A stretch of DNA of 64,000 bases from Octopus sinensis (lineage: Eukaryota): positions 109,244,001 to 109,308,000 of the forward strand of contig NC_042998.1 in assembly GCF_006345805.1 (NCBI RefSeq), in the 5' to 3' direction. The stretch's first letter is position 1; every line of letters begins with the position of its first letter. Under the pieces are notes generated by a model, which saw nothing but the letters and a program-made list of their open reading frames with translations, did no database searches and was not told the origin of the DNA. A program made the translations under genes and the position numbers. Below are positions 13,931 through 61,850 of the stretch, one piece after another.

Positions 13931-16358
13931 TATCATCATCATCATCATCATCCTCATCATTATCATTATTATTATTATCATTATTATTATTATTAATATT
14001 ATTATTATTATTATTGAGTGAGAGAGCAGTGCATGCCATCAAAGTGACACAGGTACAAATATACAAAACCCAATCATGACTACCCATCTGATAATGGTAC
14101 ACTAGGCACATGCATCACAACCATATGTGCATGACATGGTGAGCTCATTATTATAATTATTATTATTATTTAGATTTAGTCTCTTATAGTTTGATTTCTA
14201 ATCTATCCCTCACATTTACTTCACCTGTCATTCCTTTGGAATTAATAAAATAGGTCCTAGTTGAATTAAATAACATTGATATTGCCTCTTCCAATCCAAA
14301 ATATGCGGATTTTTGTAATGTTAGAAATTATCTTTACAAAGCAATATAAGACAAAGAGAAATTATATTAATGAGAACATGACTATGTTTTTGTACTTTCT
14401 CATTAGATTCCAATAACCTAATTTGGTATGGGTTGGGGGAGATACGAAGACTACATATTTCTGAATCAGTAATGAGCTTCTCACCTACATCTTTTAATTA
14501 GTTTATCAGTAAGTGTGCAACTTACTTTTGATGCCAATCAGTAAAATTGACATCTTAGAAGAGAGATATATGTTATGATCCTGTTCTTTTTGTCAGTTTG
14601 TAGTAATTTTGGCCTTGAGATAAAACAAGCTGTGCAGATCTAGCCAGGTACTGAATAAAAGTAATGTATAACTCATCAGCAGTATTTAGCCACTGATAAA
14701 CAATATTAAATTGCTATCATTGTTGTTATTATTATCTATCCATGACTAAGATGTGATCCAGCAAACTTATCATCAAAAGTATTTTAGCAATGTTATTCCA
14801 TCTTTATTTTGGACATTGTGTATTTAGATCTACAATATCCAATGAATCCTTTCCTTTTTCAAGATGGAAGGCTATTATTTAAGAAACCTTTAGCTCCTGT
14901 CTTTAGCAGATTTAGCTTGTACTGGAACATTTAACAGTAATAAGATCATCTTCTTTTTCTGTATGCTTTCATTGTAAAAGGATGAGAAAGTCCATATTTC
15001 AGGTCTTTGATATATTCAAAGATAATTGTGAGGATAATCTTTTTGGCCATGTATTAGTTTAGTACAGTTGCTCTGAGATTATTTTATTTTTAAAAGCTGC
15101 ACTTTCCTTACCCAAATCAACAAAATAACTGTTCAAGCTACAAAAATTGGCAGCTAAATCTTCTTCAAATTACATGAGGAATGATATATTGGATGATGTA
15201 GTTCTGCAAAAAGATACGCTAATCATGGGTGGACTGCCTTTCATCATAAGCCTCTCCAATTAAATTGGGGTTAAACAGCAACAACAATAGTTTTCAAACA
15301 AACAATTGATAATCTTCTATATGTGACTCTCTGACCAAGACATGACCGTTCAGCCATTCACTGATGTATCTATCATGATTTATTGGTTGAAGTTTGAATC
15401 TTTTTTTCATCAGTAGTTTAATGAAATTTGTTTCAATTTTTTTTTTTTTAGATCTATGGCTGCCTAATCAACTGACAGTTATTCATCCAATCTTTGTTTT
15501 TAAAGGGTAGTGTATCAAGGTTGTTTGAATGAATTTAAGTTGAGATGTTAATTCCTTTTTTCATCTTATAACTGCAGATTTAGTTTCTGGATGGTATATA
15601 CCTTGGATGATCAGTATCTTTCTTGCTTGTAATCAGTCTACATACCATCATTTCTAAGGCATTCTATGATCTCAAATATGTGAACCAGGACTGGGATGGA
15701 AGATCTTTAATCTGGTGAACTGAATCCACTTTTGTTCATTAATCTTCTGTAATACTAAGTTTTAAAATTAACTTTCATAAGCTAATATTAGACATTTGCA
15801 TTCTTGACCCTTTGCTATACAGTATATGTATATACAGGAATACACACACACACACAAACACACACACATGCACACATGCACACATGCACACACACACACA
15901 TGCACATATGCATGTACACACTTATATATATATACAGAGAGACAGAGCGAGAGACAGACTGACAGAGACAGGGAGCAAATCAATAATAGAAGGCAAAATC
16001 AAAAAACCAACAGAAGTAGATCTCAAAGCAAATAAAGCTATAGATAATAGTGCATACATATTGGTTAAAAATCATTTCGGATAGAAAAACCCTAGCAGGC
16101 TAAAACGTCAAAGTTACTGTTGACATTATTCTTGTAATGTCATATGTGTATATCAGTATGTGTGTGTGTGAGTGTGTGTGTGCGCGTGTGAATAAATTAT
16201 TATAAACAGCCATGTGGAATGTGTTACCATAAGGAAAAAATATAATTGTCACTAAACATGACTAAAGGTGACAAGATACCTAAATTGCTAGAAATAAGAG
16301 CTAAAATGCTCTAATGCTGAAGGAAAAGCACATAAATGTGTGTATGTATATATATATA

Positions 16359-16401
<43 letters not shown>

Positions 16402-16439
16402 ATGTGTGTGTGTGTGTGTGTGGTGTGTGTGTATATATG

Positions 16440-16740
16440 TTCATAAGGGCTGTGTAATTTCCCAAAAACACTGACTTGAGAATTCCTTAGACTGAGCGTT
16501 CAGTTTCAGCTATTTCCGTAGCCTCTTCAGTAAGGACTGCTTGTTCTGCTGATTCTGAGCTTAAATGTCCCTCATATGCATACTCAAGCACCAGATCAAA
16601 CACAGAATTGCAATCCACCCCAAAATATACAGTCATTTACTGTGAAAAACTAAATCATATACGACAATTTTAGAGTATTCACTACATGTATTGCAAACTT
16701 TAGCACAGACAACAACTGATCAAATGAGTAGGCCATATAC
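16440..16740 (-). mobile_element. Hammerhead-bearing non-coding element (Penelope pLTR or retrozyme-like) between TA/TG microsatellites
   Basis: A unique ~300 bp block containing the hammerhead and bounded by dinucleotide tracts. The classification is inferred. Confidence 0.5.
16484..16536 (-). ncRNA. Type I hammerhead ribozyme, monomer-competent, GUC cleavage triplet
   Basis: Minus strand: UCCUUA-CUGAAGA-GGCUA(cggaaa)UAGCU-GAAA-CUGA(acgc)UCAG-UC-UAAGGA. All three helices pair and the core is canonical apart from a G10.1-U11.1 wobble. Confidence 0.88.
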
Positions 16741-17559
16741 TAGCTAACATAATGTTTGTGTGAGCCTCTGTGTGTGTGTGTGTGTGTGTGCATGTATGTG
16801 TTTGTGCATGTATGTGTGCATTGTGTGTGAAATTTTATGTATGTGGTTGTGTGTGAATTTGTATGCTCATATATACATGTATGCTTTGTGCATGAGGAAA
16901 TAATATATAAATATGTAAATTCTGGAAGAGATAATGTATGATCCAATCAAGGGAAGATGATAGATAATATCTATTCAAATAAATTTTTACCTTTAAACTT
17001 AATTAAATTAGTTTTTGCTTGAAGTTTTTTTTCATCTCATATCTTACCACACCCAATCTGTGTCTTATCAGCTATTTATAATGATGGCTGCAGACTGACA
17101 CAATATATATCAACATATATATTGTTGATATGAAAGTACAGGTAACCACTCCCTAAACTAATTAAATAGATAATTTAGATTCTGCCAGATTTCTTCTTCA
17201 GTTATTTATCTCAAAATGTGGGTATATACTCATAGATGCGTGCGCACACACGCACACACACATACACACTCACTCACATGCACATGCACACACACGCACA
17301 TGTACACACATGCACATACACATGCATGCACGCACACACACACACATACATACGTACATGCATACATACATTCATACATGTGTAGTGAGAGAAAGGAGTG
17401 ATTTAGGAAATCTGGATAGATACCTCCTGGCTAACAATGTATAAAAATGAGAAGTAGAATTCATATTCATTGAATCCACTGTCCTATACAAACTGTCAAT
17501 CTGAGGAAATTTATCAAGTAACCAGCTGGTGTATACAGTGCAATGTATAACAGCAAACA

Positions 17560-27697: not shown

Positions 27698-27770
27698 TAG
27701 TACATGTGGGAACTGAACCCACATCTCTTATTTTTACAATGAGTGTGCTACCAATTACACCAACATACCC
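27698..27770 (-). pseudogene. tRNA-like sequence (tRNA pseudogene or SINE head)
   Basis: Minus strand has A box TGGTGTAATTGG, B box GGTTCAGTTCC, T-stem gtggg/cccac and a partial acceptor stem. The anticodon arm is degenerate. Confidence 0.6.
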
Positions 27771-38967: not shown

Positions 38968-41003
38968 CAGAACCTTGCAGTATGAGTTCATCATAGTATG
39001 AGCAATTTACTGTATGAGCTGAGGTTAGTATGAATTTTTATCTTGAAATATGAGCAGAAACCTGAAGTACGAACAAGTTTCATACAAGCAACCACTAGTT
39101 GTCCCTGAGCTGGTACATGTTCTCCCAACAAGTGCAGCCTCCACTTGCTCAGTTCACGTGTTTATCTCATTGTGGCAACATCCCTATTTTGTTTTCACCA
39201 GTGTTTTTTTCTTTTTAATTTTGTGGGCTTTTGTTAATGTTTCATAATAATTAGTTGTATTAGCCACGGGTCCTAAAAAGGTTAGTGAGAAGGAGAATCT
39301 AATTACAATAGAATTGAAGAAAGAAATCATTGATGAACATGGAAGAGGAGTGTGTATAGTGGACATATAATGTCAATATGGCCAAAGTATTGATGATCTG
39401 CACCATCCTGAAAAAAAAAGGGCAAGATCAAGGTCATTACAACACCCAAAGGTTATCTCCAGGCTCTCCAAAAACACACATCAGTCCATGAAGAGATGGA
39501 AAAATTGCTTCTCCTGTAGATCAATGAGGAGCAACTCAGGGGATATGATGACAGAGACCATCATCTGCAAAAAAGTACAAGCACTGTATTCGGGATCTCC
39601 TTAAACAGAACCCTGAGACATCAGCAGAGGAGACAGCAGCAGATGCATTCAAGGCCAGTCACAGCTGGTTTGATAATTTCAAGAAGCTGTAGGTCATGTG
39701 GAAGACAAATGTTAAAGCTTGGGTCACCAGGCAATTCTTCACTGAGTGGGTCGATCTTGTTCTCAGACCTGCAGTGATAAAGTACGATCTTTCTCTTAAG
39801 GCCCTCTTCATCCTCGACAATGCTCCTGCTCACTCTCCTAACCTCGAAGATGATATCCTGGACGAATTTGAATTCATAAAGATTCTGTATCTTTCATGCA
39901 ACATCACCCTACCTTCAAGCCTGTGGACCAAGGTGGTTTCTAGTTTTAAGAAATTGTACACCAAACATCTATTTCATCAGTGCCATGAAGTCACCAAAAA
40001 TACAAATCTAACCCTTTGTGAGTTTTTGAAGGATAACTACAACATTGTTTACTGTCTGTAAATCATTGATATGGCTCCTCTTGTAATGAGGAGAATGCTG
40101 AATTCTGCTTGGAGGAAACTATGGCCTGACTGTGTATCCAAAAAAAACTTTGAGAGGTTTGAGTCTGAGACACCTGTAGTTGAGGAGAGAGAGTGTTTCT
40201 TGGCAAGTTCATAGGCCTCGAGGTTGATGATGGGGACATTAACGATCTCATTGAGGAACACTCAAGGGAGCTGATGACAGATGAACTCCTTCAGCTTTAG
40301 GAGCAGCAACACTTAGATGTGGTGTAAAAGATTAGTGCCCCAGAGGAGGACAGTCTAGCAAAAAGGTTTTCTCTACGAGTGACACAAAGACTGTGTTGGC
40401 AAAGTGGTAGTATGTTTCTAAATTTGTAGAAAAAAAATCATCCTGAAAAAGTATCTACAGGTCGTACAACTGCTTTACCTAATGACACTGCCCTAGTGTG
40501 CTTTTGTAACATTTTGAAAGGCAGAAAGAAGCAGACTTCTCTTGATATATTTCTGATGGAATGACCAGCAAGTGTGAAAAGTAAAGAAAGTGTCCAAAAG
40601 CCTGAATTAAGTGAAGTGAGAAAGAAAGTGCCAGAAATCATTCTTCCTGAAGTCTTAATGAAAGGAGATTCTCCTTCCAAACAGTAATTCTCCTCCTCAA
40701 CACCCCATCTTCCTCACACACAAATCATCCCATCTTTAAGGTAATACAATAAATAAAACCAGTTTACTTATTTTTTTTTTGCATTCTCTTTTATCATGCT
40801 TTTATAATTGTCAATTTCCTTGTAACTGTACCCTTTCCATTTTAAAACCCATAAAAAATGATTTTGGGGTGGTTTTGTGGGGCTGGAATGGATTAATTAT
40901 ATTTTAATTAATTTCCATGGGTAAAATTGATTTGTAAAATGTGTAAATCATAAAACAAGCTCAGTCAAGAAACAAATTAAACTCGTACTGCAAGGTATCA
41001 CTG
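38968..41003 (+). mobile_element. Tigger/pogo DNA transposon relic, internally deleted transposase
   Basis: TIRs cagaaccttgcagtatgagtt / aactcgtactgcaaggtatcactg followed by TA. Translates to GPKK...ITIELKKEII (HTH-psq), FKASHSWFDNFKK (CENP-B HTH end), then KAWVTRQFFTEW...FILDNAPAH (ORF 39696-40061). Confidence 0.93.
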
Positions 41004-56084: not shown

Positions 56085-57090
56085 TTATATATATAAAACT
56101 GAGAATGTGTGTCCGTCTGTCTGTCAGTGTGTTTCCTTAAAACTTGAGAACTACACAACCAATTTCATTCAAATTTTACACATGCCTTACTTAGGGTCCA
56201 GGGAGTGTCAGCGGCAAAAATATTTTGAACTCTTTGCCTAGGGCGAGCCCACAGCAATATCATATCTTCTCCACTACGATTCCCTAAAACTTCAGAACTA
56301 CACGACCAATTCCATTCAAATTTTACACATGCCTTACTCAGGGTCCATGTAGTTTCATGGGCAAAAAAAATGTTCAACTTCTTGCCTAGAGCGAGCCCAT
56401 AGCAATATCATATCTTCTCCCCTATTTCAGTATTACGTGTTAAAAGTGGAACAAAAATATTTCTCTATTTTATGTCAGATACTTTCACATTAACAATAAA
56501 AATAGTAATAACAATTGAATTATATGTAGTAAGTAATAATTAAAATCAAACTAAAGTATATTATAATCGAAACATAACAAAAGTAAAAATAGCAATTGGT
56601 ATAAAATTGCATCAATGATTGAATAAGTGGTTTCACATGAATGGGAATAAATTAAGAATAAAATTAGCGTGCAGAAATGGAATAGTTCAGATGGATAATA
56701 AAAAATTAAATTAAAGAAAAGACTATTGTCTATAAAGTATACTATGTAGAGAAAAAAGAAGATTTGAACACATAGAGGAAAGCACCTTCGAAAAGTGTCT
56801 TGGTGCAACTATGAAAAGTATCTAATCAGAGGCGGTAAATTCGCCACAATAGAAGCACGGTTTGAGTCAACGGAGCATGCAAGGGAGTACTCAACTCGAA
56901 CTTGCAAAGTGGAAATATTTTATTTTTACCTTTATATCTGGGACGTAGGACATCCCGGAAAAAATTTTTAAATGCCCCCCACCCCCACCCCCAGAAGTAG
57001 AGGTAGGCTGGATTGTAGCCACACTTCTATACAAGAGGGAGGACAAGATACAATTGATTGAAATTACAAGAGACGGGCTAACAATTCCAG
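56082..57090 (+). mobile_element. Non-autonomous Helitron-like element with two 147-bp tandem units
   Basis: 5' TCTTTATATATATAAAACTGAG followed by (GTCT)n. Units start taaaactt at 56138 and 56285. The 3' end is acgggc...CCAG|T. Confidence 0.55.
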
Positions 57091-57309: not shown

Positions 57310-57930
57310 CAGGGGGTGGACAAAATAATGGAAACACCTTAAAATTTCAAACAAATTTATTTTAATATAGGGTAGGACCACTTTTGGCAGTAATTACAGC
57401 TTGAATTCTATGAGGTATGGACTCATACAAAGTTTGAATTGTTTCCAAAGGAATTTTTGTCCGTTCTTCAGCTAAAACAGTCTCCAGTTCTTGTAGTGAT
57501 GATGGTAGAGGATATTAACTCCTTACTTGTTTTTTCTAAAATGCACTCAATTATATTGAAATCTGGGGACTGTGGTGGCCAGATAAGATGTTCAACTTCA
57601 CTAGAATATTCCTCGTGTAACTTTAGCTGTGTGAATTGGTGCATTATCATCCTGAAAGATTGTGTTTCCCTCCGGAAACAGTTCTGCAACCATAGGATGA
57701 ATTTGATCTGATAAAATGCTTAAATAGTTTTGGCTATTAATTCTGCCATGAAGGGAAACCATTGGGCTGGTGGATTTCCAAGATATAGCCCCCATCCCGC
57801 AGATCATCACAGATCTTCCTCCATGTTTAACAGTTGGAAGAAGGCAGTGTGGGTCAAATGTTTCTTTTGGCTGTCTCCACATGTATGCTCAGCTGGTGAT
57901 TGGAAATAAGGTAATGGATGACTCATCCAA
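57310..57930 (-). mobile_element. Tc1-family transposon 3' half (DDE domain)
   Basis: TIR cagggggtggacaaaataatggaaacac after TA. Minus strand reads LDES...PTVKHGGRSVM...FQDDNAPIH...WPPQSPDFNIIE. Confidence 0.92.
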
Positions 57931-58489: not shown

Positions 58490-58560
<71 letters not shown>

Positions 58561-58568
<8 letters not shown>

Positions 58569-58803
58569 TTTGAGACAAAACCACTATTTTGCAAAACAAA
58601 CAAGGAAAGACTTAATCAATACATAAAATTTTAATATAAATTAAATAAACCGCCACTACAATTGTATCCACCTGACGAATGTCATTTGAAGACATGAAAC
58701 GATTGTAGTGGCGGTTTATTTAATTTATATTAAAATTTTATGTATTGATTAAGTCTTTCCTTGTTTGTTTTGCAAAATAGTGGTTTTGTCTCGAATTAAT
58801 ATT
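58561..58803. repeat. Near-perfect inverted repeat, 105-bp arms with a 33-bp spacer
   Basis: 58561-58665 vs 58699-58803: only 2 mismatches seen, both at CpG/TpG. Confidence 0.95.
58668..58711 (+). ncRNA. Minimal type I hammerhead ribozyme, GUA triplet
   Basis: CCAC-CUGACGA-AUGUC(auuugaa)GACAU-GAAA-CGAUUG-UA-GUGG. The core is canonical and stem III is the quasi-palindrome ACGAUUGU. Predicted cut after 58707. Confidence 0.85.
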
Positions 58804-58914
58804 ATATAATATTTTACTATAAAATTGGATTTAATCCTAAATCTGATTTTTTCCCTGTAAATTTGGATTTATTCCCTAATATTTATTATTATATATATAT
58901 ATATATATAATCGA

Positions 58915-60174: not shown

Positions 60175-61850
60175 AACTGGAAAGTAGAACTGATATGCAC
60201 AAATGAATCATTAGGCAACATGAAAATATACCAAGGCGTTTTCCATGCTCACTATCTCCATTACTCTTTGCTATTGCAGTAGCCCCTTTAACAAGTTTAA
60301 TAAGAAAATCCAGGTCTGCCTATGAGTTTGCCAAATCCAAAATGAGAATAAATCACCTACTTTATATGGATGTCCTCATGCTGTATATAAAAATTGAGAC
60401 AGAACAAGACTCTTTGATCCAAATAGTAAGAATATTCAGTAAAAGGGTAAACAGGTAAAGAACCCTTTCGGTCATAAATGACAATGAGATTGAACTTAGA
60501 AATTTACCCTCCAAAGCACAAGTCTGGGACAGTTGTTTATGTAAGACCAGCAATTGCCCGTGCATGCCAGCATCCCCTCTCCATAACATGGAGAGGGGAT
60601 AACTGATGTTATCCAAGGCAAAAGCAAAAGCTGATACAGTTTGGCACCAGTGATGATGTCATAACTCGTTTCTACAGCTGAATGAACTGGAGCAACATAA
60701 AATAAAGTGTCTTGCTCAAAAACACAACATATATCTCGGTCCAGGAACTGAACTCACTACCTAGTTTTTGAGAGCCTAAGTATTCAGCAAAGATATTGGA
60801 ATGCAGACTGGGATAAATATGTGCATAGTACTAATTATGAAGAGAGGCATGAAATTTTATCTCTGATGGCATAAAATTACCACAAGATAACACCATTAGA
60901 TTGCTGTGGAGTAATGGAGGAAAATAATATCTAGGAGTACTGCAAAACAATAGGATAATGGAAGGAGAAATGAGAGGAAGTCACAAAAGAGTATAAGTGG
61001 AGAATTAGGAAAGTGCTCAATACAAAATTAAATGGAGGGAATATCATTAAAGTCATAAGTAAATAGGTTGTGCCTCATATTGAGATACCCTGCTTCCTTT
61101 CTGAAATGGATGAAACTTGAACTACAGAACTAGAAAGCTGCTCACAATGCACACTGCACTCCACCTTAAATGCAATACTGAGAGTAACCACCTACCAAGA
61201 TGGTGGCAGAGAAGTACTAAACATAGAACACACTCTTAATACTGAAATACTGGATCTGTAAAGTTATGTTGTGCAGAGTAAAGAAAGAATATTATCAGTG
61301 ACTAAGAGATACCCAAAAAGTGACTAAAATAGTAGGAGAATACAAAGAGAAAAGGAAAATAGAAGAAAAAAACAGAATAAACAAATAGAAAGAAATGGAA
61401 CTGCATGGCCAATTCATGCAAAAAACTGAGAATGTTGTAAGTAAAGATTGTTGGCACTGGCTGACTGATGGGAACTTGAAATGAAAGACAGAAATCCTAA
61501 TAATAGTTGCTCAGAAACAAGCACTTAGAACAAATTTGATAAAGGCAAAGATCCACAATCTCAATCAGACAGTAAACTTGGAATCTGCAATAAAGGAGAT
61601 GAAAGTATCAATTATGTTTTCAGTGAGTGCAAGCACAAAAGGAATATAAATGCAGACATGACTGTGTAGGCAAGTGAGTGCTTTCAGATGTTAGCCAAGT
61701 GTGTGGTTTCAAAATAACAGGAAGATAGTATGAACAAAAACCAGAGGCTGTGATAGGAAATCAGAATTACAAGATTTTGTGGAATTTTCTGATAAAGACT
61801 GACCATGCTATTGAAACAAGAAAACCAGATATGATTATAGAGGATCTTTG
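60175..61850 (+). mobile_element. Decayed R4/Dong-like non-LTR retrotransposon (RT, zinc knuckle, RLE), interrupted by a SINE
   Basis: SLSPLLFAIAVAPL...INHLLYMDVLMLY...IVRIFSK | FSKDIGM...YLGVLQ...LHGQF...TEILIIVAQKQALRTN...ICNKGDESINYVFSEC...YKCRHD...KILWNFLIKTDHAIETRKPDMII. Confidence 0.92.
60444..60780 (-). mobile_element. SINE family E inserted with a target-site duplication
   Basis: Reverse complement of 7795-8128. Flanked by tattcagtaaa (60433-60443) and tattcagcaaa (60781-60791). Confidence 0.85.

What the first reader, a model, noticed from the sequence alone, without database searches (positions are those of the whole stretch)
16440..16740. Monomer-competent hammerhead with GUC site in an unexplained 300-bp island
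Seen on the minus strand (16536-16484): 6-bp stem I, CUGAAGA, 5-bp stem II, GAAA, a 4-bp-plus-core stem III capped by a tetraloop, and a GUC triplet cutting between 16490 and 16489. A possible stem I extension (agaa/uucu across an asymmetric internal loop) could provide the loop I-II tertiary contact. The only defect is G10.1-U11.1, consistent with CpG decay. Known: most PLE-associated hammerheads have a very short stem III and act as dimers, whereas stable stem III forms cleave as monomers. Inference: this is a potentially active ribozyme from a distinct PLE or retrozyme family, which would cut any minus-strand (e.g. intronic) transcript crossing it.
Basis: partly seen in the sequence, partly recalled or inferred. 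Interest (0 to 1): 0.75.

Follow-up and report, generated by a model that had tools for sequence, protein, structure and literature searches.

The report
Decayed copy of hammerhead retrozyme family
This is a real self-cutting RNA motif, but it sits in a worn, incomplete copy of an old family of small non-coding repeats scattered through the genome, likely spread by a Penelope-type retrotransposon, and this copy is predicted to fold poorly, so it is probably an ordinary fossil.

Summary
The type I hammerhead is there as described (minus strand 16536-16484; no equally complete motif in 200 shuffled windows). The "unexplained island" is explained. 16564-16194 is one truncated copy of a dispersed 347-nt non-coding repeat (1197 candidates), split by an expanded microsatellite; 16570-16768 is single-copy flank.

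In 89 loci, 34 of 137 pieces exceed one unit and 96 end in one AT-rich arc. 24 loci carry inverted 5' pieces, and none is joined to a Penelope ORF. This fits a non-LTR retrozyme copied by Penelope machinery, likely from a circular RNA. The family looks extinct: copies are 9-24% diverged.

G10.1-U11.1 is not the only defect. The family's stem I extension has decayed in this copy, and agaa/uucu is accidental. Helix III is a 14-nt palindrome in the family and in a relative's orthologue, so it is dimer-capable, not purely monomeric. The predicted share of active fold in longer contexts is 0.004 or less, against 0.05 for the family majority sequence.

Against a pure fossil: its 53-nt core is among the two best preserved of 90, which ascertainment can explain. 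The scan found younger families of this kind elsewhere in this genome. Cleavage and host strand are untested.

The parts
16194..16564 (-). Whole insertion: 5'-truncated copy (unit positions 70-343 of 347, under one unit) of a non-coding hammerhead repeat family, 11-14% diverged from the family majority
16426..16564 (-). 5' piece of the copy (unit 70-206), holds the ribozyme
16484..16536 (-). Type I hammerhead: stem I 6 bp, CUGAAGA, stem II 5 bp with G10.1-U11.1 and loop CGGAAA, GAAA, helix III, GUC
16491..16504 (-). Helix III plus loop: 14-nt palindrome in the family majority, broken here by one change at 16496; intact in the orthologue of runs X5 and X6
16489..16490 (-). Predicted scissile bond after GUC (unit 144/145); H17 is A in 25 and C in 23 of 55 copies
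16470..16549 (-). Span of the family's extended stem I (CGAG/CUCG and GCCGA/UCGGU); 3 of its 9 pairs are broken in this copy
16350..16425 (.).
16194..16349 (-). 3' piece of the copy (unit 194-343), ending in the family's usual AT-rich 3' arc
16160..16193 (.). (TG)n/(CA)n tract abutting the 3' end; likely the insertion target
16570..16768 (.). Single-copy flank, not part of the element
   Evidence: 1 candidate, itself

Best explanation
The motif is the hammerhead of one truncated, decayed copy of a dispersed 347-nt non-coding repeat family, likely a non-autonomous non-LTR retrozyme copied by a Penelope-like reverse transcriptase and now likely inert. Shown: copies map head-to-tail on a circular unit, run through the ribozyme's cut site, reach 1.6 units, end mostly in one AT-rich arc next to TA/CA microsatellites, and often carry an inverted 5' piece. 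Inferred life cycle: a more-than-unit transcript self-cleaved at its hammerheads, probably as a double hammerhead through the palindromic helix III. The monomer was circularised, and a Penelope RT/GIY-YIG enzyme primed on it at microsatellite targets and copied around the circle. After insertion each copy decayed. This one lost C11.1, three stem I extension pairs and the helix III palindrome; it has no second ribozyme in cis and is predicted to misfold in context.
For: Family size: 141 candidates for the island, all 39 non-self scored hits limited to query 167-301; 1197 for a full unit; 625 for a second subfamily. Architecture in 89 loci: 34 of 137 pieces longer than one unit, longest 558 nt; 96 of 137 3' ends at unit 281-347/1-10 (an arc of 22% of the unit), 6 near the cut site; 24 of 89 loci with a head-to-head inverted piece. 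In the 63-locus subset, 68 of 100 pieces cross the cut site and a microsatellite lies within 40 nt of 60 3' ends against 29 5' ends. Partial tandems, inverted 5' copies and (TA)n bias are described for PLEs (10.1101/2021.04.23.441226). GIY-YIG ORFs up to 883 aa are abundant in the genome. The majority unit folds as a stable circle, z -5.1, 0 of 100 shuffles. Age: 8.6-23.8% from majority, median 14.7% (52 pieces); median nearest-neighbour identity 83%. Decay: core 8.4% vs rest 13.3% substitutions, per-site p 0.21; CpG 26%; 36 of 90 cores intact, 3 of 90 with all 15 pairs. Folding: active share 0.11-0.12 in short contexts, 4e-3 to 2e-6 in nine longer ones, against about 0.05 in all 11 for the majority. 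Double hammerhead equals the MFE of a majority tandem, 3 kcal/mol below two single ones.
Against: No long tandem array was found and only 1 of 137 pieces holds two ribozymes, so the tandem criterion for an active retrozyme is barely met; only 40 candidates are scored per search. No autonomous partner was found: no family match in 20 GIY-YIG loci, and the three nearby PLE remnants are not contiguous with the unit. Covariation does not exceed the shuffle control (442/500 and 42/500), RNAalifold predicts no consensus pairs, and Rfam has no hit at gathering score in 20 loci. This copy's 53-mer is unusually well kept: 2 differences, median 7, 2 of 90 as good. Folding energies omit tertiary contacts, had no known active ribozyme as control, and the majority sequence blends subfamilies. 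No circular RNA was observed.
Confidence: 0.82

Rival explanations
1. The repeat is the pseudo-LTR of an extinct autonomous Penelope-like element, and the copies are 5'-truncated insertions of it, not a separate circular retrozyme.
For: Same insertion footprint as PLEs. Retrozymes and pLTRs are related in Xenopus (10.64898/2026.07.22.740005). PLE protein remnants lie within 1.5 kb of 3 of 89 loci.
Against: Where copies extend past one unit they continue into the unit's own other end (34 of 137 pieces). In L150 and L151 a microsatellite separates the remnant from the unit, and in L152 it starts about 800 nt away. The ribozyme is the canonical type (6-bp helix I, extended), not the minimal metazoan PLE type (PMC4209133).
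Confidence: 0.1
2. This particular copy has been kept by selection as a working host ribozyme that would cut a minus-strand, for example intronic, transcript.
For: Core and all 15 stem pairs intact, as in only 3 of 90 copies; fewest differences in the 53-mer, tied with one other. RNA-like contigs of a related organism cover the site and nearby unique DNA at depth 2-8.
Against: It was picked because it looked intact; 2-3% of over 1000 candidates gives some tens of such copies. The majority sequence leans to its subfamily. 1 of the 5 differences from the X6 orthologue lies in the 53-mer, as expected by length. The stem I extension is decayed and misfolding is predicted. The X5 and X6 contigs span the cut site. 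No host exon was found among 146 frames.
Confidence: 0.04
3. The family spread from linear transcripts of short tandem master loci, with no circular RNA; lengths over one unit reflect uncut read-through RNA.
For: No piece exceeds 1.6 units. The monomer's active fold is predicted at only about 5%. 8 of 9 Xenopus dimers tested did not cleave.
Against: No tandem master array was found. The unit folds as a stable circle. Subfamily-level compensatory changes keep the ribozyme. Circular forms are documented for coral, mussel and axolotl retrozymes (PMC7229834).
Confidence: 0.2

Closest known systems
Metazoan non-LTR retrozymes (coral, Mytilus, axolotl: PMC7229834; vertebrate survey: bioRxiv 10.64898/2026.07.22.740005)
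   Same: Non-coding unit of about 350 nt (mussel 350-390), GC 39% (under 45%), canonical type I hammerhead, head-to-tail junctions, highly self-paired predicted circle, PLEs in the same genome.
   Different: No long arrays found; mostly dispersed 0.3-1.6-unit insertions; old and decayed; helix III longer (5 bp with core pair) than the 1-2 bp given as usual; no RNA evidence.
Penelope-like element insertions and their pLTR hammerheads (PMC4209133; bioRxiv 10.1101/2021.04.23.441226)
   Same: 5' truncation, partial tandems, inverted 5' copies, microsatellite targets, palindromic helix III region.
   Different: No ORF linked; canonical not minimal hammerhead. A minimal PLE-type hammerhead occurs separately at window 58666-58712.
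Hammerhead satellites of newts and Dolichopoda crickets (passages in PMC7229834 and PMC2837043)
   Same: Type I hammerhead in a repeat of a few hundred bases, able to form a double hammerhead.
   Different: Those are tandem repeats, and the newt ones are transcribed; this family is dispersed and looks extinct.

Membership tests
Type I hammerhead ribozyme | Core CUGANGA, GAAA, UH in a three-way junction with open stem I | tested here: met
Type I hammerhead ribozyme | G10.1-C11.1 pair | tested here: not met
   G-U in this copy; G-C in 32 of 55 aligned copies
Type I hammerhead ribozyme | Extended stem I giving the loop I-loop II contact | tested here: inconclusive
   Present in the family (76-78% of cells paired); 6 of 9 pairs left here; the contact itself cannot be seen by these tools
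Type I hammerhead ribozyme | Match to an Rfam hammerhead model above cut-off | tested here: not met
   18.3 bits, E 1.2; 0 hits in 20 loci
Type I hammerhead ribozyme | Site-specific self-cleavage | not testable with these tools
   needs an in vitro assay
Non-LTR retrozyme | Non-coding unit of about 150-450 nt, low GC, with a type I hammerhead | tested here: met
   347 nt, GC 0.39
Non-LTR retrozyme | Head-to-tail repeats of the unit | tested here: met
   family level: 34 of 137 pieces exceed one unit; this copy is under one unit
Non-LTR retrozyme | Two or more consecutive units with complete hammerheads (active element, Li et al. definition) | tested here: not met
   1 of 137 pieces covers two ribozymes; only the top 40 candidates per search were scored
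Non-LTR retrozyme | Self-paired circular RNA that is expressed | tested here: inconclusive
   fold z -5.1; only contigs of runs guessed to be RNA were available
Autonomous Penelope-like element (pLTR) | RT/GIY-YIG ORF joined to the repeat | tested here: not met
Autonomous Penelope-like element (pLTR) | 5' truncation, partial tandems, inverted 5' copies, microsatellite targets | tested here: met

The most novel reading that the evidence does not exclude
The family evolved a built-in folding switch. ACUGA occurs twice, once across the core and once in helix III, so in the monomer or circle the 3' strand of helix III sequesters the catalytic core and protects the circle. In a more-than-unit RNA the 14-nt palindrome makes the double hammerhead the best fold. 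A long helix III would then mark a regulated dimer-on ribozyme, not a constitutive monomer, and the copies that run through the cut site are fossils of a Penelope enzyme copying around the circle.
Probability: 0.3. Interest if true: 0.45.

Novelty: new member of a known kind. Interest (0 to 1): 0.2.

Why it matters
As a locus it matters little: one of probably over a thousand decayed copies. As a family it adds an old layer to the hammerhead repeats of this genome and shows the Penelope insertion footprint on a protein-free ribozyme unit. That fits the published proposal that animal retrozymes are non-autonomous Penelope derivatives. It also warns that a long helix III does not imply monomer activity. 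Younger families noted earlier in this genome are better material for testing the mechanism.

Tried and rejected
Rfam on the whole window: microsatellite-driven miRNA hits and one tRNA among the 150 of 178 rows shown, no hammerhead. The exact-pattern genome search gave 8 hits and missed a known match, so it is no copy count. RNAalifold on 55 copies gave no structure, and covariation was not above shuffles. Both are expected for neutrally decaying copies but give no support. Search for a young subfamily: best identity between copies 88% over the ribozyme region; the 95-100% pairs L146/L147 and L057/L095/L096 look like segmental duplicates, not tested further. Partner search: 20 of 147 GIY-YIG matches fetched, no family match. 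Sequencing runs: no RNA holder listed; runs guessed to be RNA are contigs only, give no strand or ends, and show similar low depth on a control stretch in X6 and X9; X19 showed no cover, which proves nothing. Host gene: 146 filtered frames of 50 aa or more plus 9 longer ones gave transposon domains and three weak hits, no convincing exon. The context-folding table had an off-by-one error and was replaced. The intact-core count (19 of 55) missed cores with an extra base and was replaced (36 of 90). Literature searches for an octopus or cephalopod hammerhead family listed no paper describing one. Supplements of PMC7229834 and PMC4209133 were not read and bioRxiv supplements are closed, so a listing there is not excluded.

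Full report
OBSERVATION. My motif scan found it and one other hammerhead-like motif in the window; 200 dinucleotide-modelled windows gave 0 motifs as complete and 0.03 loose ones per window. Rfam supports it only weakly: RAGATH-1-hammerhead, 18.3 bits, E 1.2.

THE ISLAND. A genome search with 16440-16740 gave 141 candidates; all 39 non-self scored hits covered only the ribozyme half. The other half, 16570-16768, is single-copy. Aligned copies continue past the microsatellite. The window copy maps to unit 70-206 (16564-16426) and 194-343 (16349-16194), with a TA/TG tract expanded inside it. A full unit gave 1197 candidates and a second subfamily 625; 40 were scored each time, so these are neither exact nor complete counts. 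G000 is a 2.72-Gb animal genome. The label octopus comes from earlier AI notes and my recall, not from a test of mine.

FAMILY ARCHITECTURE. The unit is 347 nt and its end joins its start. I kept 89 loci, distinct by coordinates, after dropping repeats of the same place; two small sets look like segmental duplicates. They gave 137 pieces: 34 longer than one unit (longest 558 nt), 96 with 3' ends in an AT-rich arc covering 22% of the unit, 6 ending near the cut site, and 24 loci with a head-to-head inverted piece. In the 63-locus subset, 68 of 100 pieces cross the cut site and a microsatellite follows 60 of the 3' ends against 29 of the 5' ends. A template cut once at each ribozyme and left linear would give copies ending at the cut site; these do not. 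Partial tandems, inverted 5' copies and (TA)n bias are described for Penelope-like elements (10.1101/2021.04.23.441226, passages). PMC4209133 proposes circles as templates for more-than-unit copying (parts 1-2 of 4 read).

NO LINKED ORF. The genome holds many GIY-YIG frames, some of 760-880 aa. Neither the family model nor the unit matched the 20 such loci fetched, apart from one 27-nt stretch. PLE remnants lie near 3 of 89 family loci. In two a microsatellite separates them from the unit and in the third the remnant starts about 800 nt away, which fits separate insertions into the same kind of target. The partner enzyme is therefore inferred, not identified.

AGE AND SELECTION. Pieces of 200 nt or more differ from the majority by 8.6-23.8%, median 14.7% (52 pieces); this copy by 11-14%. 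Median nearest-neighbour identity is 83%. Core positions change at 8.4% and the rest at 13.3%, not a significant difference per site (p 0.21), and CpG sites at 26%. Of 90 ribozymes covered, 36 keep the core and 3 keep the core and all 15 pairs. The named structure pairs in 84% of cells against 28-41% when slid, but covariation does not beat shuffles and RNAalifold predicts nothing. The tree does show subfamily-level changes that keep the fold: a U-A to A-U pair in stem II in 8 of 9 rows of one clade, U-A to C-G in stem I with U-G intermediates, and variation at N7 and H17. These are a few inherited events, not many. I read this as selection on master elements and neutral decay of inserted copies.

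THIS COPY. It differs from the majority at 13 of 103 positions. The family's stem I extension is CGAG/CUCG plus GCCGA/UCGGU; 3 of its 9 pairs are broken here. The agaa/uucu pairing uses a private base and is destabilising by 1.5 kcal/mol. Helix III with its loop is a 14-nt palindrome in the majority (duplex -21.1 kcal/mol) and has one change here (-12.5). The orthologous contigs in runs X5 and X6 of a related organism have the palindrome intact and share U11.1. A CCGG loop variant keeps the palindrome and a CCGA subfamily does not. The predicted active share is 0.11-0.12 in two short contexts and 4e-3 to 2e-6 in nine longer ones, against 0.04-0.05 in all eleven for the majority. In a majority tandem the double hammerhead equals the MFE and lies 3 kcal/mol below two single ones; in the circle the active share is 0.047. 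The majority's preferred monomer fold pairs the core with the 3' strand of helix III. These energies omit tertiary contacts, lacked a known active control, and rest on a blended majority.

AGAINST MY READING. The 53-mer has only 2 differences from the majority, the fewest of 90 (tied with L031; median 7). The orthologue comparison shows 1 of 5 differences inside the 53-mer, with little power. Co-option stays possible at about 4%.

EXPRESSION. No listed holder is on record as RNA. Contigs of runs guessed to be RNA span the cut site at depth 2-5, and X6 and X9 cover a control stretch at similar depth. That fits intronic RNA of unknown strand or DNA carry-over. No host exon was identified.

COMPARISON. 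It works like the metazoan non-LTR retrozymes of PMC7229834 (passages and section 14 read) and fits the Penelope origin argued in 10.64898/2026.07.22.740005 (parts 1-3 of 5 read). The family meets the size, ribozyme and head-to-tail criteria but not the two-complete-units criterion for an active element. This copy is a fragment. PMC2837043 was seen in passages only. Searches listed no description of this family; supplements were not read. Earlier scan notes describe younger retrozyme families with the same footprint in this genome; none matched this sequence or place.

VERDICT. A real hammerhead in a decayed copy of a previously unlisted family of a known kind. Interest 0.2.

Noticed in passing
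window 58556-58808 (+), motif 58666-58712: A second, unrelated minimal hammerhead (CUGACGA, extra A before stem II, short near-palindromic helix III, GUA) at the centre of a 113-bp, 97% inverted repeat between TA tracts: a head-to-head PLE-type insertion. L077 holds a relative with a perfect ACGAUCGU palindrome.
   Followed up: partly
L150 5189-5721, L151 4600-4920, L152 5324-6260: Penelope RT or GIY-YIG remnants downstream of family copies; in two cases across a microsatellite, suggesting shared target tracts.
   Followed up: partly
G000, one search list: Many GIY-YIG hits share the same score and several have open frames of 781 aa, suggesting a young autonomous PLE family.
   Followed up: no
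window 27698-27769 (-): tRNA-Leu(TAA) by ARAGORN and Rfam (45.3 bits); gene or SINE head not determined.
   Followed up: no
window 39693-40058 (+), 57471-57719 (-), 60207-60455 (+): Transposon remnants: DDE_1, DDE_3 and RVT_1 matches.
   Followed up: no
L043, L060, L041, L038, L040, L042, L018, L019, L026: Subfamilies with an extra base (A or U) between A9 and G10.1 in an otherwise canonical core.
   Followed up: partly
window 56138-56424: Two-copy tandem repeat of 147 bp, 87% matches.
   Followed up: no
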